Source: a virus (taxonomy: Duplodnaviria > Caudoviricetes). From it: a stretch of DNA of 64,000 nt. Positions 32,770-51,422 of the stretch are shown in pieces (position 1 is the first letter of the stretch; each line of letters begins with the position of its first letter). The notes under the pieces were generated by a model. The model did not search any database, was not told where the DNA came from, and was given only the letters and a program-made list of their open reading frames with translations. The DNA lies in the IMG/VR virus record IMGVR_UViG_3300017914_000750, positions 29,737 to 93,736 of that record; one strand, given 5' to 3'. The position numbers were made by a program, and so were the translations under genes.

Positions 32770-33576
32770 TTAACTACCAATCGGAGTTGCAGGCCACTGT
32801 TGGTTTACATCTCCATCCCATCTTGCTTCAGGTGTTCTACCCTGTCTTGCATATGTAAATGGTGACCTATGGTCGTATGTAAATGGATTTTGACCAGTTC
32901 TCTGATAAGTTGAAGGTGACCTATAATCATATGTAAACGGTGTTTGACCCGTTCTCTGATATGTTGAAGGAGACCTATAATCATATGTGAAAGGTGTCTG
33001 ACCAGTTCTTTGATAAGTCGAAGGCGACTGATAATCGTAAGTAAATGGTGTTTGACCAGTTCTTTGATATGTTGAAGGAGACCTATGGTCATATGTAAAT
33101 GGAACCTGTTGGTCTCTTATATTTGGTTGTTGTGCTGACCTAATGTTAGGTTCTTGAGCATTTGCAATATAAGGACTAGGTTGTTGTATTGACCTAATAT
33201 TAGGTTCCTGTGCATTCACTGGATTTCTATAGGTGAATGGTGACCTATGAGAGTAAGTATTAGGTTGTCTCGCAGGTGCTTGATATGTAAATGGTGACCT
33301 ATAGTTATAAGTAAACGGGTTCCTTGCTGGTGCTTGATATGTGAAAGGAGACCTGTAATGATATGTAAACGGGTTCCTTGCTGGTGCTTGATATGTAAAC
33401 GGTGACCTATAGTGATAAGTAAACGGGTTCCTTGCTGGTGCCTGATATGTAAATGGCACCCTATGATGATAAGTAAATGGGTTCCTAGCATCGTTCTCAT
33501 ATATGAAAGGTTGCCTAAAAGAAAAGGGAACTGGCTGTCTAGCAGAAGAAATAAATGGTGATTGATATGTTGGCAT
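32770..33576 (-). CDS. Pro/Tyr/Gln-rich repeat protein (mirror partner of 33591..35003)
   Basis: 27 Pro-initiated units of 8/10/12 aa; GAGGAG SD. Confidence 0.85.
   Translation of the reverse strand: MPTYQSPFISSARQPVPFSFRQPFIYENDARNPFTYHHRVPFTYQAPARNPFTYHYRSPFTYQAPARNPFTYHYRSPFTYQAPARNPFTYNYRSPFTYQAPARQPNTYSHRSPFTYRNPVNAQEPNIRSIQQPSPYIANAQEPNIRSAQQPNIRDQQVPFTYDHRSPSTYQRTGQTPFTYDYQSPSTYQRTGQTPFTYDYRSPSTYQRTGQTPFTYDYRSPSTYQRTGQNPFTYDHRSPFTYARQGRTPEARWDGDVNQQWPATPIGS
32833..33558 (-). repeat. coding tandem repeats (54-nt period blocks)
   Basis: QAPARNPFTYHYRSPFTY and QRTGQTPFTYDYRSPSTY arrays. Confidence 0.9.
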
Positions 33577-33590
33577 TCTCCTCTATCCTC

Positions 33591-35003
33591 CTACTTCTGT
33601 TGTCTGTTATGAGCAAGTATATCATGTGCAAAATAGTTTTGATTTCCACTTACTTTTGTTAAATGGTATACTTTATGTAGACCTTCTAGTTTTTCTATAC
33701 AGTCGACTGCATGTTTAGGTGTGTTTTGTAAAATACATGATATTGTATCAATGATTTTATCACCTTCTTCAACTACACCTGAGATTTCTCCACCCCATGC
33801 TGTTCCTTCTGCAACTTCTTGTTCCCAATCTTCCATGCTTATAACACACCAACCTTTTCCGTCAACTTTGATTGGGTGTCCACCTGTTAGTTTTACACCT
33901 CTACCACCGAAAGATATTTCGTATAATTCACATTCTCTTGGAACCATTAGTTCTTCTACTTCACCTACCATGATTGTTAAATTCTCATCTGCAGTCATAA
34001 CCATATCACCAACTTCAACTTTTTGAATTGGCATATATGAACCGTCTTCCATCCAAATCATAGTATCTTCTGCGAAGCAACCACCACCTCGACCACCGCC
34101 TGGGAAGAAGACTGGTTGTCTTGCTTGGAAGGTGAATGGGTTTTGGAATGCACCAGTATTCGGTTGCTGAAGGTTTGCAATATAGGTAAATGGTTGCTGA
34201 GCACTTCTAATATTCGGTTGTTGAATATTCGCAGGATATGTAAATGGTTGTCTTGCACTTCTAATATTCGGTTGTTGAATATTTGCTGGGTAAGTAAACG
34301 GTTGCTGAGCATTTCTGATATTCGGTTGTTGAATATTTGCTGGGTAAGTAAACGGTTGCTGAGCATTTCTGATATTCGGTTGTTGAATATTAGCAGGATA
34401 TGTAAAAGGAACCTGACTATTTCTAATATTAGGTTCTTGTGCGCTTACTGGATTCTGATATGTAAACGGTGACCTATGGTCATATGTAAAAGGTGACCTT
34501 GCAATAGCTTGATAAGTTGAAGGAGACCTATAATTATATGTGAAAGGTGACCTATGAGAGTAAGTATTAGGCTGTCTTGCCTGTCTTATATTCGGTTCCT
34601 GTGCGTTTGCAATGTAAGGATAAGGTTGTTGTGCTGACCTTATGTTTGGTTCCTGTGCGTTTGCAATGTAAGGATAAGGTTGTTGTGCATTCCTGATATT
34701 AGGCTCTTGAGCATTTGCAATATAAGGGTAAGGCTGCTGAGCACTACGAATATTGGGTTCTTGAGCATTTGCAATATAAGGATAAGGTTGTTGTGCTGAC
34801 CTTATGTTTGGTTCTTGAGCATTTGCAATATAAGGATATGGAACCTGAGTTAATTCTTGACCTGAAGCGTTATTCCACCCTGAAGGTGTTTTAATATAAA
34901 TTTGGTCAACTGCTTTCCAGTTGTTAGGCCCTGTCTTTACCCAAGCTCCTTGGGTTTTGTTCCACCCAGTAGGGGTCTTAACCTTTTGATTACCTGATGC
35001 CAT
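33591..35003 (-). CDS. fibre-associated repeat protein with C-terminal Hint domain
   Basis: Trp-rich N-terminal cap (GW...W...IYIKTPSGW), 27 repeat units, GGGRGGG linker, Hint domain. Confidence 0.85.
   Translation of the reverse strand: MASGNQKVKTPTGWNKTQGAWVKTGPNNWKAVDQIYIKTPSGWNNASGQELTQVPYPYIANAQEPNIRSAQQPYPYIANAQEPNIRSAQQPYPYIANAQEPNIRNAQQPYPYIANAQEPNIRSAQQPYPYIANAQEPNIRQARQPNTYSHRSPFTYNYRSPSTYQAIARSPFTYDHRSPFTYQNPVSAQEPNIRNSQVPFTYPANIQQPNIRNAQQPFTYPANIQQPNIRNAQQPFTYPANIQQPNIRSARQPFTYPANIQQPNIRSAQQPFTYIANLQQPNTGAFQNPFTFQARQPVFFPGGGRGGGCFAEDTMIWMEDGSYMPIQKVEVGDMVMTADENLTIMVGEVEELMVPRECELYEISFGGRGVKLTGGHPIKVDGKGWCVISMEDWEQEVAEGTAWGGEISGVVEEGDKIIDTISCILQNTPKHAVDCIEKLEGLHKVYHLTKVSGNQNYFAHDILAHNRQQK
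33606..34079 (-). other. Hint (intein-like) autoprocessing domain
   Basis: Block A CFAEDT, IQKVEVGDMV, block B TGGHP, block F/G VYHL...NYFAHDILAHN; followed by RQQK and stop. Confidence 0.9.
34116..34841 (-). repeat. coding tandem repeats (54-nt period blocks)
   Basis: PYPYIANAQEPNIRSAQQ x5 and PFTYPANIQQPNIRNAQQ x4-5. Confidence 0.9.
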
Positions 35004-35038: not shown

Positions 35039-36769
35039 TTAAGAGTAAAGAATCCATAAATCCCCAACTGCACCGTCTGAACCTGTAGGTGCTGAAGTTG
35101 ATTGGTATACATTTCTTGCTGTTCCGCCTGAATTAGTTGCATTTGTTATTGTTAATGCACCAGTATTTACTGCACTTGGTGTAATAGTCAAGTTACCTGT
35201 TGAAGCACCAGTGAATGAACCTGTTCCAAAAGTAACTGCGTCTGCACTTTCGTCCCAACCGATAAACACATTGTCTGAACTTCCTCTTTCAATTACGAAA
35301 CCAGCGTCATTTGAAGGTGAACCTGAAGTTCCAGTTCCTAACTCAATCAATGCATCATCGATTGTTGTATTTGTAGAAGATACAGTTGTTGTTGAACCGT
35401 TAACTGTAAGGTTACCTGAAAGTGTTAAGTTTGCAAACTGAACATTACTGTTTGTTGCAACTGCCTGACCGATACTAAACTCACCACCTGAATATGATAC
35501 ACCAGTTCCAGCACTTAAATGAGCTCTTACTTCTGCTGAATTTGGGCCGACATATGTAATAACACCACTTGAATTATCATATGCAAGTGAACCGTCTCCA
35601 CCTGAATCTGTTACTGAGATAGCACCTCTTGCATCTGAGTCTCCATAAGCTGCAGAACCAGCAAGTGTTAATGTTCCTGCTGAATCGTCATAAGTTGCAG
35701 TGATGTTTGAACCACCAACTATAAGAGCTGCAACTCTATCGTCAACTCTTTCGTTTGTGAAGTATAGATTACTTGAACCCTCTGAAAGAGCATCTGTATC
35801 TGCAAGAACAGTTCCACCTAATGCAGTAGAAGTTCCACCGATTGTGATTGAACTATTTGATAATGCACTGTTAGGTATTGAACCTGCTAATTTACTTGCA
35901 ACGATTGAACCTGCTAACATGTCGTTAGTGATACCACCTGATTTTACTTGAAGTGAATCTGAATCTATTTCGATTGAACTGTCATCTACTTGAACATTAA
36001 GGGTTACTGCACCTGTAGTTCCACCACCTGTTAAACCTGACCCAGCAGTAACTCCTGTTATGTCTGCTTGGTTAGTATTTGCAATGGTTAGTGTTCCAGC
36101 TGCATCGTCATATGTTTTTGAGATACCTGTTCCAGCAACTATAAGTGAAGCAACTCTATCGTCTACTCTTTCTGAAGTATGGAATAAATTTGTTGAACCT
36201 TCTGTAATGTCATCTGAATCACCTGATAGTTCTGATAATGCGTCTTTACTTGCAACTTGAGAATCTACATATGCTTTAACTGATTGTTGTGTTGGAATCT
36301 GTGTAGCAGAGTTCGAAGCCATATTGTCTTCGTCTAATATTGCAGTTCCACTTACACCAGTATTTAAAACTGCACTTGTAAGTGTTTTGTTTGTTAATGT
36401 TTGTGAACCTGTTAATGTTGCAACAACTGAAGTATCTACTTCAATATCGTCTGAGTTTACTGTAATACCTGTTCCTGAACCAATATTAAGTGTTGCATCA
36501 CCTGAAGTTGCAGTTCCAGTCAAACCAGCACCAGCATTAACTCCTGTAATATCACCTACATTACCAGTGATTGTAAGAGTTCCAGCAGAATCATTATAAG
36601 ATAATGATACCCCTGAACCTGCTTGGAGTAAAGTTCCCGCTATGTGGTCGTCAATAGTTTCTAAAGCATTTGTTCCGATTGAAGCTGCAGTTAAGTCTCC
36701 TGAGCTATCAATAACTTCTGTTGTTCCTACAGTAAGACCATTCTTGATTATAAAATTTTTCGATGTCAT
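35039..36769 (-). CDS. tail fibre protein
   Basis: G/S/T-rich with EGSxNLYFTNERVDDRV modules; C-terminal SAP...GDLW motif. Confidence 0.75.
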   Translation of the reverse strand: MTSKNFIIKNGLTVGTTEVIDSSGDLTAASIGTNALETIDDHIAGTLLQAGSGVSLSYNDSAGTLTITGNVGDITGVNAGAGLTGTATSGDATLNIGSGTGITVNSDDIEVDTSVVATLTGSQTLTNKTLTSAVLNTGVSGTAILDEDNMASNSATQIPTQQSVKAYVDSQVASKDALSELSGDSDDITEGSTNLFHTSERVDDRVASLIVAGTGISKTYDDAAGTLTIANTNQADITGVTAGSGLTGGGTTGAVTLNVQVDDSSIEIDSDSLQVKSGGITNDMLAGSIVASKLAGSIPNSALSNSSITIGGTSTALGGTVLADTDALSEGSSNLYFTNERVDDRVAALIVGGSNITATYDDSAGTLTLAGSAAYGDSDARGAISVTDSGGDGSLAYDNSSGVITYVGPNSAEVRAHLSAGTGVSYSGGEFSIGQAVATNSNVQFANLTLSGNLTVNGSTTTVSSTNTTIDDALIELGTGTSGSPSNDAGFVIERGSSDNVFIGWDESADAVTFGTGSFTGASTGNLTITPSAVNTGALTITNATNSGGTARNVYQSTSAPTGSDGAVGDLWILYS

Positions 36770-41321: not shown

Positions 41322-41654
41322 TTACCTCGTTACGCCTGGGGTTACTACTGCTTGACCTTCTACAACTCTAGTTGTTATTCCACCAGCACTTGTAATATTT
41401 AAGTCATATACATATCGACCTGCGTCTAAAGCAGTTGTTTGTGTATCATTTAATGATAATGTAACTGCTCCTCCAGCATTATTATGTGAAGAAGTGAAAG
41501 TTTGACTGACATTTGAGGAACTATATGTCTTTCTGATTTGTGCAGCTGCACTATATCCAGTTAGGTCTAATACATTCCCTGATGAATCTGTTACATCTAC
41601 AGTAATAGAAAAGTCTGTTCCTTGGTCGATAAATATGTTTGCAATAATAGCCAT
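41322..41654 (-). CDS. virion structural protein (baseplate/fibre adaptor-like)
   Basis: IDQGTDF, AQIRK, GRYVYD, RVVEG...VTPGVT. Confidence 0.65.
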   Translation of the reverse strand: MAIIANIFIDQGTDFSITVDVTDSSGNVLDLTGYSAAAQIRKTYSSSNVSQTFTSSHNNAGGAVTLSLNDTQTTALDAGRYVYDLNITSAGGITTRVVEGQAVVTPGVTR

Positions 41655-41674
41655 AAAACTATTTATACAAAAAG

Positions 41675-43306
41675 TTAGCCCTTAGAGAATTGTGCGTTTG
41701 GAACTGATTGGTGAATCTTTTCTACCGTTCCACTATCGTTTACATAAACCTCTTCTACTTTTTCAACACTTCCACTATTATTTCTGAAAATACCCTTAAC
41801 TTTTGCTACTGGGCCAATAGGTCTTGTAGTAGAATAAGGTGTTTGTCCTATTGAAGGAGACCTATGGTCATATGACACCTGATAGTTAAACTGATATGGG
41901 AACGGTTGTCTTGCAGGCAAGATATTAGGTTCTTGGTGGTTATCAGTTCTTTGATATATTGAAGGTGACCTATGATTATAGAAATTAGGTTGTCTAGTCG
42001 CTGCAATATATGGATACGGTTGTCCAGCATCTCTAATATTTGGTTCTTGTTGATTTGCAATATAAGGATAAGGATTTTGTCTATTTGCAATATACGGACT
42101 TGATTCTTGAGCATTTGCAATATACGGACTTTGTTTACTTGCAATATATGGACTTGTGTTCTGAATACTTGCAATATACGGATACCTTGTTTGTTTTATA
42201 GTCGGGTTCTGTTGTTGTGCTTGTGCAATATAAGGACTTGGTTGTTGTGCAATAAAAGGACTTCGTTGTTGTGCTTGTCCAATAGTCGGGTTTTGTATAT
42301 TTGCTTGATATGTATACGGTTGTTGTTGACTGATTATTGGAGTCGTTCCTATTGCTTGATATGTAAACGGGTTTGGTTGTTGCGTTTGTGCTGAACCAGG
42401 CGACCTATATTGATAATCAATAGGTTCACCGTATCTTCCACCACTTGGCCTTATTCCCCATTCGGGATTCTGTGCTTGTCCGATAACTGGGACTGGATTC
42501 TGTGCTTGTGCAATATAAGGATACGGTTGTTGCACCTGATTACCTTGAGCAGTAGAAGGGACTTGATAAGGCCCAACGGCTGGTGACCTATATGAATATA
42601 TTGTCCAATATGGGTCTATCTCGGGTTCAAATCTTGAAGGATATGGTGGAGTATAAAAAGGTGGAGCTCCAATCTGAGTAGTCCCAGTGGAGGGCACCTG
42701 CTGGTTGCCTTGAGCAGTAGTTTGAATATTATACGGAGCTCCTCCTGCTTGTGCTACTGGTCTTCTTGCAGCTTGAACTGGGTAAGTCGAAGGGTTTGCA
42801 TTTTGAGTATTATAAGGACTTGGGTCTCTTGCATCATACGAACTCCTTGCTTGTCCTTGATAAGTAAATGGGTTCGGTGACCTATGCTGATAAGGTGTTT
42901 GTCCTCTTGCCTGATAAGTAGACGGTGACCTTTCCGTTGCATTATAGATAACTGGTTGTCTATGTTGATATGTAAATGGACTTTGACTTTGTGCTTGATA
43001 AGTTGTAGGTGTTTGTCCTTGTGCTTGATATGTGCTTGGAGACTGGAATTGATATGTTATTGGTGTTGTTCCTATTGCAATATAGAATCCAGGCGATTGG
43101 ATACTTCTAATAAAAGGGTGTTGTCTATTTGCAGTATTCTGAGAAGTAAAAGGACTTCTTGCACTAAAAGTAAAAGGATTTTGTCCTTGTCTTAAAGTTT
43201 GTCTTATTGTTTGTCTTGATACTGGGTTCTGAACTTGTATAGTTGTCTGACCCTGATAGGGTTGTTGAAAACTCGAACCTATATTTACATAAATTTCGTC
43301 AGCCAT
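41675..43306 (-). CDS. Pro/Gln/Tyr-rich repeat fibre protein with internal mirror symmetry
   Basis: Same unit vocabulary as the 32770/33591 pair; C-terminal cap VEEVYVNDSG. Confidence 0.8.
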   Translation of the reverse strand: MADEIYVNIGSSFQQPYQGQTTIQVQNPVSRQTIRQTLRQGQNPFTFSARSPFTSQNTANRQHPFIRSIQSPGFYIAIGTTPITYQFQSPSTYQAQGQTPTTYQAQSQSPFTYQHRQPVIYNATERSPSTYQARGQTPYQHRSPNPFTYQGQARSSYDARDPSPYNTQNANPSTYPVQAARRPVAQAGGAPYNIQTTAQGNQQVPSTGTTQIGAPPFYTPPYPSRFEPEIDPYWTIYSYRSPAVGPYQVPSTAQGNQVQQPYPYIAQAQNPVPVIGQAQNPEWGIRPSGGRYGEPIDYQYRSPGSAQTQQPNPFTYQAIGTTPIISQQQPYTYQANIQNPTIGQAQQRSPFIAQQPSPYIAQAQQQNPTIKQTRYPYIASIQNTSPYIASKQSPYIANAQESSPYIANRQNPYPYIANQQEPNIRDAGQPYPYIAATRQPNFYNHRSPSIYQRTDNHQEPNILPARQPFPYQFNYQVSYDHRSPSIGQTPYSTTRPIGPVAKVKGIFRNNSGSVEKVEEVYVNDSGTVEKIHQSVPNAQFSKG

Positions 43307-43307
43307 A

Positions 43308-44585
43308 TCATACTACAAACCAAAGGTGACCAGTCGATGTAGAACCAGCACTTGAAGGTGCTGAGTTAACTATTTCATAATCCAATTCGACATCATCACC
43401 ATCGATTTTCACTCCGTTTGAAGTATTAACTGAGAAGACACCTGACCCACTCATTGCAAGTCCACTGCCTCCACTTAAATAAGATTGAACATCTGAATCA
43501 CCATATTGTGCAGAACCATTGATTGTCAATGTTCCAGCATTGTCGTCATATGATGTTGAGATACCTGTTCCACCAACAATTAATGTATTAACTCTATCGT
43601 CAACTCTTTCATTTGTAAAATATAAATTACTTGAACCCTCTGTTACTGTATCAGAAGTTTGTTGATTAGTTGGAACATATTTACTTGAAGAAGCATTATA
43701 TACTAATATCTGACCGTCTGAAGGTGCAGTAGTGTCAACATCACTTAAATCTGTTATTTGGTGATTTGTAATACTTGATACTGTTCCAGTCAATGCACCT
43801 GTAGAAGCGTCTAAAACAACTGAACCACCATGTTTAACATCACCAGTGATATCACCAGTAACATTTCCAGTTAGGTTACCAACTAAAGAAGTAGAAGTAA
43901 GAGAACTAAATCCAGTTCCAACTCCACCTGTAATAGTTGCAGTCCCGTCTGTTAATGTAGGTGCTTCTAATGAATGACCTGTATCGACTTTAACATTACC
44001 GTCAACAAAAGTGTTACCTTCTAACTGAACCTGATATCCTGATTGTAATGATACTGCAGCTGCAGATGTTCCATTTAATATGACTCCGTTTGAGTTAATG
44101 TTGTAAATTGTGTTCTCTGCTGTTTCTGTAAACTGACCACCACCAGCACCACCGTCTGCAGCTACACCTGATTGAGAACCAGTGTATGCATATACAGTTA
44201 AAATTTGACCAGCAGTAGGAGCTGCATTCAAGAGGATACCAGTATAGAATAATCCTTGAGGTATTTGAATTGTATAACCGTTTGCACCACTACCACCTTC
44301 TACTAAGTGAACTCCGTCTAGGTATACTTGAACTTTACCTTGTCTATATCTTAAAACATTTCCATTTGCGTCTGCACCTGAATATGATTGGTCTGTAGTT
44401 GTTGTATATTCGAATGTTTGTAAGAAGAATGTTTTATCTTCAAGGACATTAATTGCATCAACAAGAGAGTTAGGGTTATTAAGAGTTCCTCTTAAACCCG
44501 TGATACTTCCCACTTCATTATTCAGTGTATTGAACGAATTTCTAAATTCGTTTAAAGTCTGTTCTGCATTTACTTGATTAGCCAT
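43308..44585 (-). CDS. fibre / whisker-like virion protein
   Basis: TLNEFR N-terminus, EGSSNLYFTNERVDDRV module, C-terminal SAP...GHLWF. Confidence 0.65.
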   Translation of the reverse strand: MANQVNAEQTLNEFRNSFNTLNNEVGSITGLRGTLNNPNSLVDAINVLEDKTFFLQTFEYTTTTDQSYSGADANGNVLRYRQGKVQVYLDGVHLVEGGSGANGYTIQIPQGLFYTGILLNAAPTAGQILTVYAYTGSQSGVAADGGAGGGQFTETAENTIYNINSNGVILNGTSAAAVSLQSGYQVQLEGNTFVDGNVKVDTGHSLEAPTLTDGTATITGGVGTGFSSLTSTSLVGNLTGNVTGDITGDVKHGGSVVLDASTGALTGTVSSITNHQITDLSDVDTTAPSDGQILVYNASSSKYVPTNQQTSDTVTEGSSNLYFTNERVDDRVNTLIVGGTGISTSYDDNAGTLTINGSAQYGDSDVQSYLSGGSGLAMSGSGVFSVNTSNGVKIDGDDVELDYEIVNSAPSSAGSTSTGHLWFVV

Positions 44586-44784
44586 GTGTTTTCTCTATAA
44601 GTTCTTTCAATAGTCCTTTAATTTCACCTATTTCATTCTTTAGATTATTTATATCTTCTCTCTGAGCTCTATATACTTCTCTTCTTCTCATTGTCAATCT
44701 GTATTGTTCAATATCAGTATTGATAATTGCATGAGAAGATTCGTCTCTCTCTAGGTGGGTATGTCCTTCTACCTTTATACCCAT
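44578..44784 (-). CDS. small protein downstream of the VrlC-like gene (start MGIKVEGH)
   Basis: TAATG coupling; KVEGH..L.RD..S.AIIN motif plus coiled coil. Confidence 0.65.
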   Translation of the reverse strand: MGIKVEGHTHLERDESSHAIINTDIEQYRLTMRRREVYRAQREDINNLKNEIGEIKGLLKELIEKTHG

Positions 44785-47700
44785 TATGCTAATGCCATTA
44801 CCCTTAGAGACGATACCATAGGAACAGCACATGTGTTTGTTCCTTGTCCTACAATTTTAATTACGAATGCAGTGAACTCGGGTAAGTCTTCTGCAGTATA
44901 TTCGTATTCCTTAAAGTTTCTTCCGTCTACTTCAATTGCAGTATCGGGTGAACCGTCTGTATTGAAGAACTCAAAACCTATATCATCAAGAGGTGTGTTT
45001 TCATCTGCCTTGATAATCTTAAACATATACTTAAATTCAGTGTTAGGTGGTCTAAAGTTATCTGCAATAACTTTTAGACTCGTAGCAGGAGTTTTAAGGT
45101 TCACTTTCCTTGTTACATAAACGAATGCATTACTGTCCCCTTCGGGTTCAGTAGACGGCACATATGTAACTCCTGAAGGCACATCACTACTTGAATCTAT
45201 GTTGTTTAGTCTGTTTGCAATTGCAATACAACCGATTGTTCCAACATCTATAACTGGAGATACATTCTGATTTACTGAATATAATTGTGTCAATAAACTG
45301 AATGACCTTTGTGATTGCATTTCATTTGTTTCGTTAATTGGTGAAGCAACAACGCCTGGGTTATCTAAGAATGTATTATCATTCAAAGTAATAAAGTTGT
45401 TTGTTGACCTCTTAGTATAAACTGTATCACCACTTCCTATGACACCTTCGGGTGATTTCATTGCAGTTGTATTAATACTTGCAATAATTTTTGAACCACC
45501 AATTTGTGTTGAAGGAATCATTGTATGTAATGCGTCAAAGTAATAGTTTCTCTGTAGTTTAACAGCTTCTCCACCACCTGAAGTAGATTCTAATGCATCG
45601 TATCCAGTTGCTAATTTATTTGCACCTATGTAACTTGATAGGTCAACTGCAATATCAAACGAATCAATTCCAGTATTTGATATAGAAGTATATGTTACTG
45701 CACTTGAACCACCGATTGCATCTACTGGGATACCACCTAGTGTCTGACCAACTGAAGCAACTGTTACAGTCATATCTGCTTGACCACCGTCAAAGTTTTC
45801 TAATGTGATTACATCATTTACACTATATCCTTGGCCTGGGTTTGTAATTCTAACATCACTAACAGCACCACTTGCAATTGTAACACTAAAGATTGCACCT
45901 GAACCACCTACTGGTGATACTGAGGTTGCAGCTATTGTATAAGTTCCGTCACTCAAACTAGTATTGTCTGTTATGTTTGCACCACTTGTTGATAATACAG
46001 AACCAATTCTATCACCAGTGATTCCTGATAATTGAGTATTAGAAGTATTATCATATAATCCGTGTAAGTATGCAGCGACTTTAACTGTATTACTACTTAC
46101 AGTAGTTTGTATTGGGTTCTTTGCAAGTGTTGATAAATCTAAATCTTTGTTATCAAAATATATTGAAGGTATTTTAGAAGTATCAAATTTTGCAATCTTC
46201 ATGTTAAACTTCAAGTCGTCTGTCTGTTCTGCAGTCCATGTTGAAGCATTTTGAGACATGAATAATGAACCAGCGTATGGTTGTCCTGATATTTGTTGTC
46301 CTGAGATTAAATCTGTTTCACCCATTCTAGATATCCAACATTCATATTCGTTTGAGTTTGAGTAAACTACAAAACAGTATTCTTTCTTCTCTTCAACATA
46401 TACTGGTGAATCGAATGTGAATGTAGTTGAAACTGAACCGTCTGCAGATACATTAACATCACTTGGATTCTTTGTTACTGTTGAGAAAGGTAAAACTACT
46501 TGGCCTGGATATCCATTAACCATGTTTCTGATTTCTACTGATACAGGCATATGTGAATCTTTTGCTTGGAAGAACAAGTCAATTGAAGTCAACATCATAC
46601 CACCACTTGCTTCACATAAGAATGATTGTGCAAGTGGGTCTCCCCAACCCCTCTCTAAGAATGAACCTCTTCTAGGACTATCAATTATAGGGAATACTGG
46701 AACTGGTAATGCTGGTGGTTCGGGTGGTGGCACTGGTATATTAATAACTGGTGGCACGAAAACCTCGGGTGGTATAACCACCTCTATTGTTGTAGGTGTT
46801 GGAACCACTATTGGAGTAGTATCGACTGGAATATCGGGTGCAACCGTATCGACTGCAGATATATTTAATCTTTCACCTCTCCTTTGTGTTCTTCTTTCAC
46901 CTGAAGTATTTTGTGTAATAACCCTACCATTTCTTGTTGAAACAATTTCTGTTTGTGAACTGTTCAATAGACCTTGTGCTTGATATGTTGCAGAACCTTG
47001 ACTTGGTGGATTAGATAGGTTATAGAATGAAGAAGTTAACTTCAACTCTCTCTGACCAGTTGGGAATCTTTGAGTTGCACTATTTGGAAGTTCAAAGAAT
47101 CCTCTTAATCTACCATTACCGTCTGATTGTAAGTTTGAAGCTACAGTCAATCCACCGTCTGCTGAATAAGGTGCAGAATGTGGTCTACAGAATTTATCTA
47201 CTCTGACATTATCAAAGAAGAAGAAATGATTTGTGTTTGGTTTTAAGTTAGTTGCATCTATCTCAATAGTCCTTGCTCTCATGAAAGGAATAATAGATAC
47301 TGACACAACTCTGTCGTTTCTTGTTTCTACAAAGTCTTCTACTACTGAAGTTGTGATACCTGTTCTTGTTTGAATCTCAGGTGTCTCTGTAATTTCTCTA
47401 GTTATTTCTTGGCCTGCTTGCCATGTTCCACCTTGAGAAGGGTCACCACTCCAACTTCCTGCTGAAGTTGATTGGACTTCTGAACTAACTTCTGCTGGTT
47501 CACCTACCCATGTTGTTTGCCATGAGTTCCAAACAGTTCCTAAAGAGTTTCCAACTCCCGCCATAACTGCATCAAAATTACCTTCTCTGTTTATTCTGAC
47601 ATCAGGTAATCTTTCTGTATCGTTCCATATATCGGTGCCTGGCGTTAGTTTAACATTACCTATGAATGCAAAGACATGATATGGATTAACATTTATGTGT

Positions 47701-50700
47701 CTTGAAGCTTTATCTTGATTTACATATGATATAGGTGTATATGGTAATGTAATCAAATCTCCAGTTTTTTGATAGTTTGAAGATGTTGTAGTATTTAAAT
47801 CTAAGTCAAAGAACTGTTGTAAGTTCTGAGGTCTTAACATACCCATTTTAGTATCGATTGCACATTTATAATCGGGGTGATTGACATCACCAATCTTATG
47901 ACCTCTAAAGTTGTCTACTAAGAAACCTGATTTAAATCTATCGAAACCGTCTGCGTCTAAAATCTGTTTTGTTTGAGTATCTTTCTCTAACATAGATAGA
48001 GAAGTTACTCTTTCTAAGTTTGTGACCCTGTTGTTGATTCTACCGATATCTTTCATTGTATATCGTCTATGGTCAAAACTTCTTACTCTTATCTTACTGA
48101 TATCTTTTGTATATGCTGGAATGAACAATTCGAACATTTCGATTGCTTCGTCTACAGCTTTTGGTTTTGTTGGTGATAAAGAAGGATTACCTGTTGATAT
48201 CTCAAATAGTCCGTCTCTCTGTAAGAAGATTCTATCTATTCTAGAAGTATAGAACTCAATATCACCTGTTGTGTTTAAGCCTGGGACTGGTGTGTCTAAA
48301 GCACTTGAACCTGTTCCAGTAAATACTTTACTGTTGTATTCGAATGGGTCACCAGTTAATCCAGTTGATATATTTGCTGGACTTGTTGGGTCGGGGTCTG
48401 CACTAGAGAATGTTGAAGAACTATAAAGTTGTGCAACTGTAGGTCTAAAGTCTACTGCATCTGATAGTTCGTATTCTCCGTCTGGCTCTAATCCACCTAA
48501 GTCTACTTTGTTTGGTGTGTAAACTGGGATTTCTTTATAGTCAATACCTGAATATGAATTTACATCATAGAACTCACCACCACTTGAGGTAAAGTTATCG
48601 AATACAATTAGTATTGAATTGTTTGGTAAAGGTTGCCCTGGCTTTAATGTTATTTTTGCATGGTCATAATATCCGTCTCTTTGACCGTTATCAAAGAAGT
48701 ATCTATCTGTAATGTTATCTGACCCTGTTGTTATTGTTCCTAATGTTGCAATTGCATTTGAAGTTTGACCAACAACACTTTCACCGTCTTCGAATACAAA
48801 GTTATTTGTGTAGTAGAAGTATGTGGCTGCACCTGAGTTATATTGTATAACTCTTGCTCTTGCACCTGAAGTTTGACCTACAAGTATTTCGTCTTTAACT
48901 GGTAAACCAGTTACACTACCAAGGATTGCACTAGGAGGTAAAGGTGTTGAACCGCCTATACCCTCATAGATTCCTCTTACTGCAAGAACATCAGCAACAC
49001 CTAGTGTTATATCTTTATGGTCGTATGCAGTTCCGTAATCTACACTTGAAGATTTAGCTGCAGTTACGATTGAACACCTTGACCTGTTCAATGTTTTATC
49101 TCTGTTTACTGGTGCATCTAAATTAACTGCATATGATACAATATAGTCGACACCGTTTGCAGCTGAAGTTGTAAATTGATATTGTTCAGTAGTTGCAGTT
49201 GGATTTGATTTAGCACCTGCTGTTGCTACTGGGTCTAACTCGTCTCCTAGATTAACACCTGAACCACCATTTAAATCGTATACAGATAATTGGAAATTAT
49301 CTTGAGACATTTGTAAGAATGATTCGTTGTTATCGGTTGTTAGGGTTACTTTACCACCACTAACTCTAATAACTTTTTGTTTCTTAACTGTAACTTGGTC
49401 GGGTGTATGATTTTTTACATAATCTCTTGGCCATGCATAAATCGATACTGACTGGTCTTGGTCATAAATTTTTGTTCTTCGTCTTGTTGTATTACCTTGA
49501 TATACTGCAGTTGAATTTGCTGTTAAGACTGCAGCGATACTACTTGTTACTGAGGAAACTATTAAGTCTTGTCCTGAAGCTGGGTTATGAACTATATCAC
49601 CCTCTTTTAATTCTGCAGTAAATCTTGTTCCGAATCCAGTAAGGTCGGTTCCATTTTGTTCAAAGATAACTGTTCCTGTTAATTGTGTATCTTGGTCTAC
49701 GATTAAATCTGCAGTAAAGTCAGCAAGAGTTGCGTCTGACCTTTCTTGACCCATACCTCTAACTCTGTCTATGTTATAAGACCTAATTTCTCTTGAGGTG
49801 CTTCTATATGTATCACCATATGAGGTGCAGGCAAAGTCTCCGTCTCCTGTTGAAGTGATTGCTTCACCGTGGACAAAGGTTCCAATTACATCATGAACAT
49901 ATAATGCATTTGAATTATTATCATATGCAACAATACCAGTTGCACCTGAAGTTCCACCTGTTACTTTATCACCAGCATGTGCAGTTCCAGTATGTGATTG
50001 ATATCCAATCTTAGTAAACATTTTTATATCAAAGAGATATAAAGAAGTTTCTGCTAAAGTTGTTCCGTAATTTTCTATATGTCTAACCCTTGCAAAACCA
50101 ATATGGTCTTCCGAGTTTAATGTTCCTGCTGAAGATATTTTACTTGGGAATAAATGAACTGGTGCAAAAGGTGTTAATGCTTGTTGTCCTGCTTCATTAC
50201 CAAAATCGGGATAACCATAAGTATTTGCAACTTTAACATAGTTACCTAATCTTGAAGGTGTCTTTGCACCTGATATTGTTGTTGTTTGTCTTGCTTTGTT
50301 TATGTTAAGGTTTGTTGTTCCGATTTTATCAATCTCGTAACCTTTAACATATGCTTTTCCTGGCGATACTTGGAATACAAATTTACTTTCGTCACCACCT
50401 TGTGCTTTAAGATAGAAACCTGCGTTTGTTGTATCGTCTAGATGTTCTCTAAGACTATGTGTAAATTGTTGAACTATGAAATCACCATTTGCATCGAATG
50501 TTCTTCGTGCAAGTGTGTTTTCTATTTCTGTATAAATTGGTCGTGTTGTTTTTAATTCTATAACACCGTTGTTTACTCTAACTAATTCAACGAAGTTTGC
50601 GTCTTCTGTTGAAGTTAATGCATATTTTGATAGAGTAAGTGTAAACTTAAGTCTGTCAGCACCAGCTGCATTCTCATTTGAAGTTCCCTGAGCATTATCA

Positions 50701-51422
50701 TACAAAGAACTATCTTCTGCAGTTGATATGAATGATTCTGTAATTGTCAAACCAACTCTGTAAGAAGGTTTTGAATTGTATTTTTCTAAAACTAGTTGTT
50801 GTGCTGGAACTCTTACAAAGAATCCTCTAATGTATACAACACCTTCTGATATATTTGCAATTGAAGTTCTACCAACTGGTGTTACACTTTGAGGTGCAAC
50901 TTTAAAATGATTATTGTTTGAAGTGTCTTCAGTTACATCACCATCACTATTAAATCCACATGGTGCTAATTCTTCGTCACCTGAGAATGCAAAAGAGTTA
51001 TTTGCATCTGTTCCTTGTCTTTCTAATCTGATATAAAGAGTAATATAATCTGTAGAGGTTTCTGCATCTGAATTGATAACCTTTGCAACAACTCCTGAAG
51101 TTTTTCCTACAAGATATTTGTCATGATATGTTTCTCTATATGATTCTACTGCAGCGTCACCACTTGAGTTAGGGTTTGAAGCTAAAACTTTGACATAGTA
51201 TAAATCAAAGTCTACATCAGACTGAGCTCCAGTAACAATTGAACCTTCTTCGAAGAAATGGTCACCAAATTTTTCAATTTGATTCTGTAATAGAGATTGT
51301 GATTGAATTAATTCTCTTGCTTGAAGAGGTCTTCCTGCTCTATATAGAACTTTGTGAAAATCTTTTAACTCCGAATAGTCATCGTAATAGGGTGATATGT
51401 TTAAATCAGTCTTCTGCGCCAT
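44784..51422 (-). CDS. large virion structural protein, VrlC/DUF4815-like
   Basis: LNISPYYDD, PLQAREL, GKAYVKGYE, RRYTMKDIG, FKSGFLVDNF, DPLAQSF. Confidence 0.85.
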   Translation of the reverse strand: MAQKTDLNISPYYDDYSELKDFHKVLYRAGRPLQARELIQSQSLLQNQIEKFGDHFFEEGSIVTGAQSDVDFDLYYVKVLASNPNSSGDAAVESYRETYHDKYLVGKTSGVVAKVINSDAETSTDYITLYIRLERQGTDANNSFAFSGDEELAPCGFNSDGDVTEDTSNNNHFKVAPQSVTPVGRTSIANISEGVVYIRGFFVRVPAQQLVLEKYNSKPSYRVGLTITESFISTAEDSSLYDNAQGTSNENAAGADRLKFTLTLSKYALTSTEDANFVELVRVNNGVIELKTTRPIYTEIENTLARRTFDANGDFIVQQFTHSLREHLDDTTNAGFYLKAQGGDESKFVFQVSPGKAYVKGYEIDKIGTTNLNINKARQTTTISGAKTPSRLGNYVKVANTYGYPDFGNEAGQQALTPFAPVHLFPSKISSAGTLNSEDHIGFARVRHIENYGTTLAETSLYLFDIKMFTKIGYQSHTGTAHAGDKVTGGTSGATGIVAYDNNSNALYVHDVIGTFVHGEAITSTGDGDFACTSYGDTYRSTSREIRSYNIDRVRGMGQERSDATLADFTADLIVDQDTQLTGTVIFEQNGTDLTGFGTRFTAELKEGDIVHNPASGQDLIVSSVTSSIAAVLTANSTAVYQGNTTRRRTKIYDQDQSVSIYAWPRDYVKNHTPDQVTVKKQKVIRVSGGKVTLTTDNNESFLQMSQDNFQLSVYDLNGGSGVNLGDELDPVATAGAKSNPTATTEQYQFTTSAANGVDYIVSYAVNLDAPVNRDKTLNRSRCSIVTAAKSSSVDYGTAYDHKDITLGVADVLAVRGIYEGIGGSTPLPPSAILGSVTGLPVKDEILVGQTSGARARVIQYNSGAATYFYYTNNFVFEDGESVVGQTSNAIATLGTITTGSDNITDRYFFDNGQRDGYYDHAKITLKPGQPLPNNSILIVFDNFTSSGGEFYDVNSYSGIDYKEIPVYTPNKVDLGGLEPDGEYELSDAVDFRPTVAQLYSSSTFSSADPDPTSPANISTGLTGDPFEYNSKVFTGTGSSALDTPVPGLNTTGDIEFYTSRIDRIFLQRDGLFEISTGNPSLSPTKPKAVDEAIEMFELFIPAYTKDISKIRVRSFDHRRYTMKDIGRINNRVTNLERVTSLSMLEKDTQTKQILDADGFDRFKSGFLVDNFRGHKIGDVNHPDYKCAIDTKMGMLRPQNLQQFFDLDLNTTTSSNYQKTGDLITLPYTPISYVNQDKASRHINVNPYHVFAFIGNVKLTPGTDIWNDTERLPDVRINREGNFDAVMAGVGNSLGTVWNSWQTTWVGEPAEVSSEVQSTSAGSWSGDPSQGGTWQAGQEITREITETPEIQTRTGITTSVVEDFVETRNDRVVSVSIIPFMRARTIEIDATNLKPNTNHFFFFDNVRVDKFCRPHSAPYSADGGLTVASNLQSDGNGRLRGFFELPNSATQRFPTGQRELKLTSSFYNLSNPPSQGSATYQAQGLLNSSQTEIVSTRNGRVITQNTSGERRTQRRGERLNISAVDTVAPDIPVDTTPIVVPTPTTIEVVIPPEVFVPPVINIPVPPPEPPALPVPVFPIIDSPRRGSFLERGWGDPLAQSFLCEASGGMMLTSIDLFFQAKDSHMPVSVEIRNMVNGYPGQVVLPFSTVTKNPSDVNVSADGSVSTTFTFDSPVYVEEKKEYCFVVYSNSNEYECWISRMGETDLISGQQISGQPYAGSLFMSQNASTWTAEQTDDLKFNMKIAKFDTSKIPSIYFDNKDLDLSTLAKNPIQTTVSSNTVKVAAYLHGLYDNTSNTQLSGITGDRIGSVLSTSGANITDNTSLSDGTYTIAATSVSPVGGSGAIFSVTIASGAVSDVRITNPGQGYSVNDVITLENFDGGQADMTVTVASVGQTLGGIPVDAIGGSSAVTYTSISNTGIDSFDIAVDLSSYIGANKLATGYDALESTSGGGEAVKLQRNYYFDALHTMIPSTQIGGSKIIASINTTAMKSPEGVIGSGDTVYTKRSTNNFITLNDNTFLDNPGVVASPINETNEMQSQRSFSLLTQLYSVNQNVSPVIDVGTIGCIAIANRLNNIDSSSDVPSGVTYVPSTEPEGDSNAFVYVTRKVNLKTPATSLKVIADNFRPPNTEFKYMFKIIKADENTPLDDIGFEFFNTDGSPDTAIEVDGRNFKEYEYTAEDLPEFTAFVIKIVGQGTNTCAVPMVSSLRVMALA

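What the first reader, a model, noticed from the sequence alone, without database searches (positions are those of the whole stretch)
41822..43261. Single-chain version of the same mirror code in a second fibre protein
Seen: in 41675..43306 the N-terminal units run 12,16,8,12,8,10,8,10, and the C-terminal units read backwards run 12,16,8,12,8,10,8,10. The match continues 10,8,10,10 if non-Pro unit starts are allowed. Pairings follow the same rule (PSTYQAQGQT with PYPYIANQQE, PITYQFQS with PNIRDAGQ, PFIRSIQS with PNFYNHRS). The centre holds two non-repetitive loops (PPFYTPPYPSRFEPEIDPYW and PEWGIRPSGGRYGEPIDY). Inference: this is an intramolecular long hairpin with a possibly branched tip. It independently supports the zipper model and suggests the two-gene version arose by splitting at the tip.
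Basis: partly seen in the sequence, partly recalled or inferred. Interest (0 to 1): 0.8.

Follow-up and report, generated by a model that had tools for sequence, protein, structure and literature searches.

The report
Fold-back mirror-coded phage tail fibre
A 543-residue protein in the tail-fibre gene block of an uncultured marine T4-like phage has a first half and a second half that match unit by unit when one is read backwards, so the chain most likely folds back on itself into a very long, thin two-stranded fibre of a design I found in no database or paper searched.

Summary
Split at prolines, the N side of the 543-aa protein (41675-43306, minus strand) runs 12,16,8,12,8,10,8,10. The C side read backwards gives the same series, but only if five internal prolines are ignored. 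All nine boundaries coincide (p=6e-5).

Further tests point to antiparallel pairing of the two halves:
- Over 160 residues per arm every Pro is at an even position and nearly every Tyr/Phe at an odd one.
- Aromatic never faces aromatic in register; it faces small or polar residues, often Ala or Gly.
- Across 11 lineages each N arm fits its own C arm best (p<5e-6).
- 17 related loci (14 distinct sequences) split the protein in two at the tip: N arm plus globular tip domain, then C arm plus base. One pair mirrors exactly over 20 units.
- AlphaFold2 pairs residues 13-49 with 461-497 at moderate confidence; the rest is unresolved.

The gene always sits in the same slot of the fibre module.

Best reading: a fold-back beta-ribbon shaft of a tail fibre, about 60 nm long, probably oligomeric.

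The "branched tip" is not supported: the two loops are mirror partners. Whether split or fusion came first is open.

No solved structure, Pfam or PHROG relative was found. This scan's earlier AI notes report two-chain versions in other genomes.

The parts
41675..43306 (-). Whole ORF P0001, 543 aa plus stop. Composition: Q 15%, P 13%, Y 8.5%; 2 Leu, 1 Met, no Cys. The start codon lies 1 nt after the stop of the upstream 425-aa fibre gene.
43262..43306 (-). N-terminal base strand, residues 1-15 (MADEIYVNIGSSFQQ). It is conserved across the family and resembles the two C-terminal motifs KGIFRNNSGS and EEVYVNDSGT.
   Evidence: invariant I5 Y6 N8 G10 Q14 Q15; the resemblance is read directly from the sequence
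42665..43261 (-). N arm, residues 16-214. Pro-punctuated units of even length. Over the first 160 residues all 18 Pro are at even positions and 20 of 21 aromatic residues at odd positions. A 7-residue unit at 176-182 flips the parity.
42605..42664 (-). Loop 1, residues 215-234 (PPFYTPPYPSRFEPEIDPYW). Non-repetitive and acidic. It is the mirror partner of loop 2.
   Evidence: position sums 513-515
42467..42604 (-). Apical segment, residues 235-280. The chain reversal is presumed near residue 257. AlphaFold2 does not resolve it.
   Evidence: inference
42413..42466 (-). Loop 2, residues 281-298 (PEWGIRPSGGRYGEPIDY). It carries a second copy of the EP.ID.Y..YRSP motif. A GE[DP]..Y motif is conserved here in homologues.
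41822..42412 (-). C arm, residues 299-495. Read backwards from P496 it mirrors the N arm. A 7-residue unit at 323-329 flips the parity at about the same level as in the N arm.
41678..41821 (-). C-terminal base domain, residues 496-543 (PIGPVAKVKG...EKIHQSVPNAQFSKG). This is the best conserved part of the family. AlphaFold2 predicts short strands at 505-510 and 513-519.
43308..44585 (-). Upstream 425-aa fibre protein, ending ...SAPSSAGSTSTGHLWFVV. It is a candidate docking partner of the base. It lies upstream of the zipper gene in 68 of 69 related loci, directly adjacent in most.
41322..41654 (-). Downstream 110-aa LtfC-like beta-sandwich protein (PHROG 3304, 'L-shaped tail fiber protein assembly'). 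It is 64-81% identical across loci, far more conserved than the zipper protein.

Best explanation
P0001 is the shaft-and-tip subunit of a tail fibre of a pelagimyophage-type T4-like phage.

The chain leaves a small base domain and runs outward for about 200 residues as one beta strand (N arm). It reverses in a tip of about 85 residues. It then returns as a second strand (C arm) that pairs antiparallel with the first, so that residue i lies opposite residue about 512-i. The N-terminal strand and the C-terminal 48 residues together close the base.

Register is set by a length code: prolines at matched positions every 6-16 residues, always an even number apart. It is also set by a type code: a unit with aromatic residues faces a unit with small or polar residues (Ala, Gly, Gln), so each rung of the aromatic face carries at most one aromatic.

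What is shown: the mirror, the parity, the complementarity, the covariation, the split relatives and the synteny.

What is inferred:
- the strands are beta strands, with Pro at sites whose backbone NH does not bond to the partner strand;
- the aromatic/small face is buried by oligomerisation, probably a trimer as in other phage fibres;
- the length is about 60 nm;
- the base docks on the C-terminus of the preceding 425-aa fibre protein;
- the tip carries receptor contacts.
For: (1) Anchored Pro mirror in P0001. All nine boundaries coincide (p=6e-5), and 11 of 15 N-arm prolines are matched against 4.8+-1.8 expected (p=0.0014).

(2) The same anchored mirror is found in many relatives. P0005 and P0010 each have 16 of 19 matched (p<5e-5). 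A gapped mirror score has z>=4 in 30 of 44 proteins or pairs.

(3) Strict two-residue period over 160 residues of each arm. Even/odd counts are: Pro 18/0 and 23/0; Tyr/Phe/Trp 1/20 and 1/19; Ala/Gly 1/16 and 2/15. This is the period of a beta strand. It also explains why unit lengths are even.

(4) Complementarity tested with parity-preserving shifts. Pooled over ten lineages, aromatic-aromatic rungs number 4 of 750 at shift 0 and 2 of 750 at +2, against 62-130 at -6, -4, -2, +4 and +6. In P0001 alone the counts are 0 of 75 at shifts 0 and +2, against 10 at +-4. At mirrored positions Pro-Pro occurs 86 times against 14.8 expected, Tyr-Ala 54 against 12, and Tyr-Gly 32 against 5.

(5) Covariation. 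Among 11 lineages the N-arm ladder fits its own C-arm ladder better than those of others: trace 7.04 against 5.0+-0.33 in permutations (p<5e-6). Beyond the conserved base the figures are 6.35 against 3.57+-0.47.

(6) Seventeen IMG/VR loci (14 distinct sequences) carry a two-gene form with the same base motifs. Gene 1 has the N base, the N arm and a globular domain of about 170-200 aa. Gene 2 has the C arm and the C base. In L057 the 20 units (160 aa) are an exact mirror and of opposite types.

(7) The paralogous pair in this window, P0002/P0003, has 33 Pro-Pro matches at a single offset over 243 residues.

(8) AlphaFold2 gives two 37-residue strands, 13-49 and 461-497, with block-mean pLDDT 68-81 across most of each strand. 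They sit at the register the mirror predicts, within two residues. The only structural neighbours of the model are the two-stranded ribbon arms of HU/IHF proteins, at Z 2.1-2.3.

(9) Fibre context. The gene lies between baseplate and VrlC-like genes and the neck, in the hypervariable host-recognition cluster described for pelagimyophages (PMC7029224). Its slot is conserved in 66-68 of 69 loci.

(10) DNA-level tandem repeats are weak, so the ladder is not a recent duplication artefact.
Against: - No confident structure. 449 of 543 residues are below pLDDT 50. A second model, on homologue P0005, is below 50 even in the base ribbon.
- Beyond residue 100 the Pro mirror in P0001 is looser (offsets of 0 or 2), and part of its score comes from the quasi-periodic 8/10 alternation: the forward control scores 20 against 28 for the mirror.
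- One clade of single-chain relatives shows no significant mirror (L023, L034, L039, L051; z<1.3).
- P0017 lacks 36 residues of the C arm with no matching loss in the N arm, and P0125 has very unequal arms. Both come from short metagenome contigs and may be assembly collapses of repeats. If real, they argue against obligatory full-length pairing.
- The exact cross-strand register is open, because aromatic-small pairing peaks at shift +2, not 0.
- Oligomeric state, presence in the virion and receptor binding are untested.
Confidence: 0.65

Rival explanations
1. The arms pair antiparallel but between molecules. The N arm of one chain zips with the C arm of another, giving swapped dimers or head-to-tail polymers rather than a monomeric hairpin.
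For: Every sequence statistic is equally satisfied by pairing in trans. In the two-gene relatives and in P0002/P0003 the pairing must be between chains.
Against: Both arms are in one chain, joined by an 85-residue segment. The two loops of that segment sit at mirrored positions. The N-terminal strand and the C-terminal motifs resemble each other and would be brought together by a hairpin. The AlphaFold2 monomer pairs 13-49 with 461-497 within one chain.
Confidence: 0.15
2. It is a beta-solenoid or other stacked-repeat fibre in which consecutive units pack on each other. On this view the mirror is a by-product of quasi-periodic 8/10 repeats.
For: Much of the protein alternates 8- and 10-residue units, and any periodic series is its own mirror. 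In P0001 the forward control scores 20 against 28 for the mirror, and several offsets give 13-14 Pro-Pro pairs.
Against: - The non-periodic series 12,16,8,12 at the base is mirrored (p=6e-5).
- Irregular unit lengths within one protein do not suit a solenoid of constant coil length.
- Cognate arms covary across lineages.
- Split relatives place the two arms in different proteins, with an exact 20-unit mirror that includes the run 10,10,6,6,8,10,6,8,6.
- The parity is unbroken across 160 residues.
Confidence: 0.07
3. It is a disordered low-complexity spacer, or a curli-like or prion-like amyloid subunit. This phage group also carries curli secretion genes.
For: The composition is rich in Q, N, Y and P, and AlphaFold2 confidence is low over most of the chain.
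Against: - The N-terminus (MADEIYVNIGSSFQQ) does not look like a signal peptide; this is read from the sequence, and no predictor was run.
- The slot inside the tail-fibre module is fixed in 66-68 of 69 loci.
- The termini are conserved.
- Register-specific complementarity and covariation of the arms are not expected of a disordered or self-stacking amyloid sequence.
Confidence: 0.05

Closest known systems
Needle domain of the phage T4 long-tail-fibre tip protein gp37 (Bartual et al. 2010, as described in PMC9659904 and PMC6957217)
   Same: [quoted passage not shown] The receptor-binding part is at the turn. Large and small residues complement each other across the core: G921 cannot be replaced without clashing with F970.
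   Different: - No sequence relation: no PDB match at E<=1.
- P0001 has no HxH iron-binding motifs; its 7 His are all single.
- The gp37 needle is about 15 nm long, whereas these arms have about 200 residues each.
- gp37 has no proline ladder, no strict dipeptide parity and no unit-type pairing code.
- No two-gene form of gp37 is known to me (general knowledge).
Two-gene mirror pair P0002/P0003 of the same window (33591-35003 and 32770-33576), and the two-gene relatives in IMG/VR loci L011-L068
   Same: The unit vocabulary is the same (PFTY..RS, PNIR.AQQ, PYPYIANAQE). So are the even unit lengths, the parity and the rule of aromatic opposite small. The mirror is exact at one offset.
   Different: P0002/P0003 lack the MADEIY and AKVKG..EKIHQ base motifs of P0001, and they carry a Hint domain at the apex end of chain 1. 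The IMG/VR two-gene relatives share P0001's base motifs, but after the N arm they carry a 170-200-aa globular domain instead of P0001's small proline-rich tip.
Two-stranded beta-ribbon arms of HU/IHF-type DNA-binding proteins (Hbb 2np2, pA104R 6lmh)
   Same: They are the only structural neighbours of the confident part of the AlphaFold2 model: a long two-stranded antiparallel ribbon.
   Different: The matches are very weak (Z 2.1-2.3, rmsd 8-10 A, 2% identity). Those ribbons are short and bind DNA, and no relationship is implied.
Other beta-structured phage and virus fibre shafts: the triple beta-helix of T4 gp5 and gp12, and the adenovirus triple beta-spiral (general knowledge; gp5 as in PMC3004832)
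   Same: They are repeat-built, proline- or glycine-punctuated, trimeric beta fibres in tail or vertex appendages.
   Different: In those fibres the chains run parallel and in register and wind around a threefold axis, and the repeats have a constant length (8 or 15 residues). Here the matching is between the two halves of one chain read in opposite directions, and the unit lengths are irregular.

Membership tests
T4 gp37 needle / receptor-binding tip | Sequence similarity to gp37-type tips | tested here: not met
   A profile of 38 family members found no chain among 177,635 distinct PDB sequences at E<=1. There was no Pfam or PHROG hit.
T4 gp37 needle / receptor-binding tip | HxH motifs that coordinate iron along the needle axis | tested here: not met
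   P0001 has 7 His, and none is in an HxH motif (sequence).
T4 gp37 needle / receptor-binding tip | Chain runs out and returns, giving antiparallel strands along the fibre | tested here: inconclusive
   Sequence statistics and covariation support it. AlphaFold2 supports it for residues 13-49 and 461-497 only. There is no full structure.
T4 gp37 needle / receptor-binding tip | Homotrimer | not testable with these tools
   Three copies of 543 residues exceed the complex tool's size limit.
Phage tail fibre (generic) | Encoded in the tail-fibre / host-recognition module of a tailed phage | tested here: met
   gp5-, gp6- and baseplate-wedge-like genes lie upstream and fibre proteins lie on both sides. 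The order is the same in 66-68 of 69 related viral contigs. The region corresponds to the host-recognition cluster of pelagimyophages (PMC7029224).
Phage tail fibre (generic) | Present in the virion and binds a host receptor | not testable with these tools
   No isolate or proteome was available. There was no match in 50,697 GenBank phage records.
Mirror-coded zipper fibre family (this window's P0002/P0003 and the IMG/VR relatives) | Pro-delimited even-length units, strict parity, mirrored ladder, aromatic opposite small | tested here: met
Beta-solenoid / curlin repeats | Constant coil length with consecutive units stacking; a signal peptide for curlins | tested here: not met
   Unit lengths are irregular (12,16,8,12,8,10...). 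The N-terminus is not hydrophobic. No curlin Pfam hit was found.
Collagen-like or PPII-type fibre | Three-residue period (G-X-Y) | tested here: not met
   The period is 2, not 3. All Pro are at even positions and aromatic residues at odd positions. Gly is 30 of 543 residues.

The most novel reading that the evidence does not exclude
This is one member of a previously undescribed class of fibrous protein. In this class two beta strands of about 200 residues are held in a unique register by a sequence-encoded code: proline 'punctuation' at matched even spacings, plus complementary unit types with aromatic opposite small. The code would work equally within one chain or between two chains. Phages could then lengthen, shorten, split, fuse or re-tip the fibre by compensating changes in both arms, giving a protein analogue of strand complementarity.
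Probability: 0.5. Interest if true: 0.9.

Novelty: new variant of a known kind. Interest (0 to 1): 0.75.

Why it matters
Pelagimyophage-type phages infect some of the most abundant bacteria in the sea, and their tail-fibre proteins could not be identified by homology (PMC7029224). If the model is right, this family supplies a long fibre in a conserved slot of their host-recognition region.

The model also offers a simple, readable rule for how two very long beta strands find a unique register. That rule could be tested directly with cysteine pairs, cross-links or cryo-EM. It could also be reused in protein design for rigid nanofibres of programmable length, or for specific pairs of different chains.

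The coexistence of one-chain and two-chain forms with exchangeable tip domains points to a route for swapping receptor-binding modules.

Tried and rejected
- Pfam and PHROG scans of P0001 found no family.
- tblastn of the whole protein and of its non-repetitive C-terminal 66 aa against 50,697 GenBank phage records found no match. The tool notes that the window's own genome may be left out.
- A PDB profile search found no match.
- The ESM Atlas returned only unnamed viral clusters, with scores of 0.89 or less.
- A naive count of Pro-Pro pairs over all offsets was not decisive: 14 at sum 486 against 13 at 512, reached in 1.7% of unit shuffles. I replaced it with tests anchored on the conserved termini.
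- Complex prediction with the N part (1-200) and the C part (314-543) as two chains gave no verdict (score 0.02, mark 0.32, controls not run). I do not count this for or against binding.
- A second AlphaFold2 job, on homologue P0005 with a clade-specific alignment, had mean pLDDT 34. It placed strands 20-36 and 418-434 at the expected register, but below pLDDT 50, so I do not use it as evidence.
- A structure search of the P0001 model gave only Z 2.1-2.3 matches.
I could therefore not look for partners of the proteins that have only an N arm (P0035, P0085, P0021, P0060).
- The curli or amyloid reading and the collagen-like reading were considered and rejected (see Rival explanations and Membership tests).
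- I looked for a second internal mirror inside the apical segment 235-280, as a test of a 'branch'. Only P242/P273 match, so there is no support.
Full report
**What is there.** The window is the structural region of a marine T4-like myovirus, with all genes on the minus strand. It carries gp5-, gp6- and baseplate-wedge-like genes, a 2212-aa giant protein, and then a run of fibre proteins. The finding is the ORF 41675-43306 (P0001, 543 aa). Its start codon lies one base after the stop of a 425-aa fibre gene. It is followed by a late-promoter-like TATAAATA and a 110-aa LtfC-like gene. P0001 is 15% Gln, 13% Pro and 8.5% Tyr, and it has only 2 Leu, 1 Met and no Cys. It matches no Pfam or PHROG family.

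**Checking the observation.**
- Backwards from P496 the strict series is 6,6,14,2,4,4,12,8,8,2,8,8,2,8,10... The quoted C-side series therefore needs five internal prolines to be ignored.
- Put without that freedom: the prolines at 16,28,44,52,64,72,82,90,100 each face a proline at 512 minus their position.
- I fixed the offset by the two family-conserved anchors (QQPYQGQ and TTRPIG) and shuffled only the even-length C-arm units. All nine boundaries then matched in 6e-5 of trials. Eleven of 15 N-arm prolines were matched, against 4.8+-1.8 expected (p=0.0014).
- Beyond residue 100 the match is looser, with offsets of 0 or 2. A gapped mirror alignment still zips 16-200 with 496-314.
- Part of the score comes from the quasi-periodic 8/10 alternation: the forward control scores 20 against 28 for the mirror. 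A naive all-offset count is not decisive.

- Both arms keep a perfect two-residue period for 160 residues. All 18 and 23 prolines are at even positions. Aromatic residues are odd in 20 of 21 and 19 of 20 cases. Ala/Gly are odd in 16 of 17 and 15 of 17 cases. Gln is mostly even. This is the period of a beta strand, and it explains why unit lengths are even.
- With parity held fixed, I slid one arm against the other. Pooled over ten lineages, rungs with aromatic opposite aromatic number 4 of 750 at shift 0 and 2 of 750 at +2. They number 62-130 at -6, -4, -2, +4 and +6. In P0001 alone the counts are 0 of 75 at shifts 0 and +2, against 10 at +-4.
- At mirrored positions Pro-Pro, Tyr-Ala, Tyr-Gly, Phe-Gln/Glu and His-Arg are strongly enriched. 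Each rung of the odd face thus carries at most one aromatic residue, often opposite a small one.
- Aromatic-small pairing peaks at shift +2, so the exact hydrogen-bond register (0 or +2) stays open.

**The family.**
- A word-indexed search gave more than 400 metagenomic relatives.
- An exhaustive profile search of 1.84 billion representatives gave only 175 clusters. Some were full length. Many matched only the N part or only the C part.
- A scan of IMG/VR gave 69 viral loci and 48 distinct proteins.
- The conserved parts are the N-terminal 20 residues and the C-terminal 60 or so residues. The arms vary.
- The anchored mirror is significant in most lineages: 16 of 19 prolines in P0005 and P0010, p<=5e-4 in many others, and a gapped score with z>=4 in 30 of 44.
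- One clade shows no mirror (L023, L034, L039, L051).

**Covariation.** Among 11 diverged lineages the N-arm ladder fits its own C-arm ladder better than those of the others. The trace is 7.04 against 5.0+-0.33 in 200,000 permutations. Beyond the conserved base it is 6.35 against 3.57+-0.47. Tandem duplication gives direct order, not mirrored order. A DNA inversion would change the reading strand. A structural constraint between the two arms is therefore the simplest cause.

**Natural split forms.** Seventeen loci (14 distinct sequences) carry two genes in the same slot.
- Gene 1 has the MADEIY..QQPY base motif, an N arm and a 170-200-aa non-repetitive C-terminal domain.
- Gene 2 starts just downstream, in another reading frame, and has only a C arm and the AKVKG..EKIHQ base.
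- In L057 the series 6,6,8,10,8,10,8,10,8,10,8,10,10,6,6,8,10,6,8,6 of gene 1 equals gene 2 read backwards, over 160 residues. PYIANAQQ lies opposite PFTYQNRQ, and PYPYIANAQQ opposite PFTYARQGQT.
- The mirror reaches almost to the first residue of gene 2. The break is therefore exactly at the tip, after a tip domain.
- The paralogous pair in this window, P0002/P0003, gives 33 Pro-Pro matches at one offset over 243 residues.
- On a tree of the C-arm end plus base, the two-gene forms fall in four clades among one-gene clades. The tree needs 3-4 changes, is unrooted, and its well-supported branches force only one change. Whether split or fusion came first cannot be decided.

**Structure prediction.**
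- AlphaFold2 with 38 sequences gives mean pLDDT 41.8. It does give two 37-residue strands, 13-49 and 461-497, with block-mean pLDDT 68-81 across most of each strand. The position sums are 510, within two residues of the 512 that the mirror predicts.
- The only structural neighbours of the model are the two-stranded ribbon arms of HU/IHF proteins, at Z 2.1-2.3.
However, 449 residues are unresolved.

**The tip.**
- The two loops, 215-234 and 281-298, sit at mirrored positions (sums 513 and 515). They are copies of one motif, R[FY].EP.ID.Y..YRSP, and they hold the only acidic cluster in the centre of the protein. Related motifs are conserved in homologues.
- Both arms also contain one 7-residue unit at about the same level (176-182 and 323-329), so both flip parity together.
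- I therefore read a single hairpin with a paired knob and a 46-residue cap, not a branch.

**Context and function.**
- In 66-68 of 69 loci the order is: VrlC-like giant protein, 425-aa fibre, zipper (one or two genes), LtfC-like protein, 80-aa protein, 538-aa fibre.
- The LtfC-like protein is 64-81% identical across these loci. The zipper protein is only 31-51% identical.
- This region corresponds to the hypervariable host-recognition cluster of pelagimyophages, where tail fibres could not be identified by homology (PMC7029224).
- In this window, each of the two fibre genes that precede a zipper gene ends in SAP...G.LW. This fits docking of the zipper base on that C-terminus (an inference, also made in note e1-5959846).

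**Model (inferred).**
- A two-stranded antiparallel ribbon of about 200 rungs, some 60 nm long at 3.3 A per residue.
- One face is aromatic/small and the other carries Pro, Gln, Thr and Arg.
- The aromatic face is probably buried by oligomerisation, likely as a trimer.
- The tip contacts the host.

**Comparison with what is known.** The nearest described thing is the needle of the T4 gp37 tip, a six-stranded antiparallel needle in which each chain returns from a distal head (PMC9659904). In that needle Gly921 must stay small to accommodate Phe970 (PMC6957217). P0001 shares no sequence with it and has no HxH iron sites. It is an order of magnitude longer, and it has a proline ladder and a unit code that gp37 lacks. 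I found no paper that describes such a design.

**Earlier notes of this scan.** Earlier AI notes report two-chain versions in several other genomes and mention one-chain fold-back forms. I reached my reading before opening those notes, and I do not count them as evidence.

**Weak points.**
- There is no confident full structure.
- P0017 and P0125 have uncompensated arm differences. They come from short contigs and may be repeat collapses.
- One clade shows no mirror.
- Oligomeric state, presence in the virion and receptor binding are untested.

Noticed in passing
window 41660-41667 (minus strand): A T4-type late-promoter-like TATAAATA lies between the stop of P0001 and the ATG (41654) of the LtfC-like gene. 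That gene can therefore be transcribed on its own, although it is tightly packed behind the zipper gene.
   Followed up: partly
window 33591-35003 and 32770-33576 (minus strand): A second zipper of two chains, P0002 and P0003, has 33 Pro-Pro matches at one offset over 243 residues. P0002 ends in a Hint/intein-like domain (GGGRGGG-C...AHN) at the apex end. Relatives carry Hint-type Pfam families (PF14890, PF14623, PF01079).
   Followed up: partly
window 41322-41654 (minus strand) and loci L001-L069: The 110-aa LtfC-like beta-sandwich protein directly downstream is 64-81% identical across 67 loci, while the zipper protein is 31-51% identical. It may be a conserved assembly factor or partner of a fast-evolving fibre.
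   Followed up: partly
window 43308-44585 and 35039-36769 (minus strand): Each of the two fibre genes that precede a zipper gene ends in a similar motif (..SAPSSAGSTSTGHLWFVV and ..SAPTGSDGAVGDLWILYS). This could be the docking site for the zipper base.
   Followed up: no
proteins P0017 and P0125 (metagenome representatives): P0017 equals P0010 minus 36 residues of the C arm only. P0125 (164 aa) looks like P0005 with everything between two YPANAQTP repeats removed, which leaves unequal arms. These are either assembly collapses of repeats or real variants that would challenge obligatory full-length pairing.
   Followed up: no
   Followed up: no
window 42221-42274 and 42068-42182: Only short, imperfect DNA tandem repeats (2-3.5 copies, 74-93% matches) underlie the protein repeats. 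The units are old and diverged at the DNA level.
   Followed up: yes
window 44784-51422 (minus strand): A 2212-aa giant structural protein lies directly upstream of the fibre block. By position it is the VrlC-like protein that marks the start of the pelagimyophage host-recognition cluster (PMC7029224).
   Followed up: no
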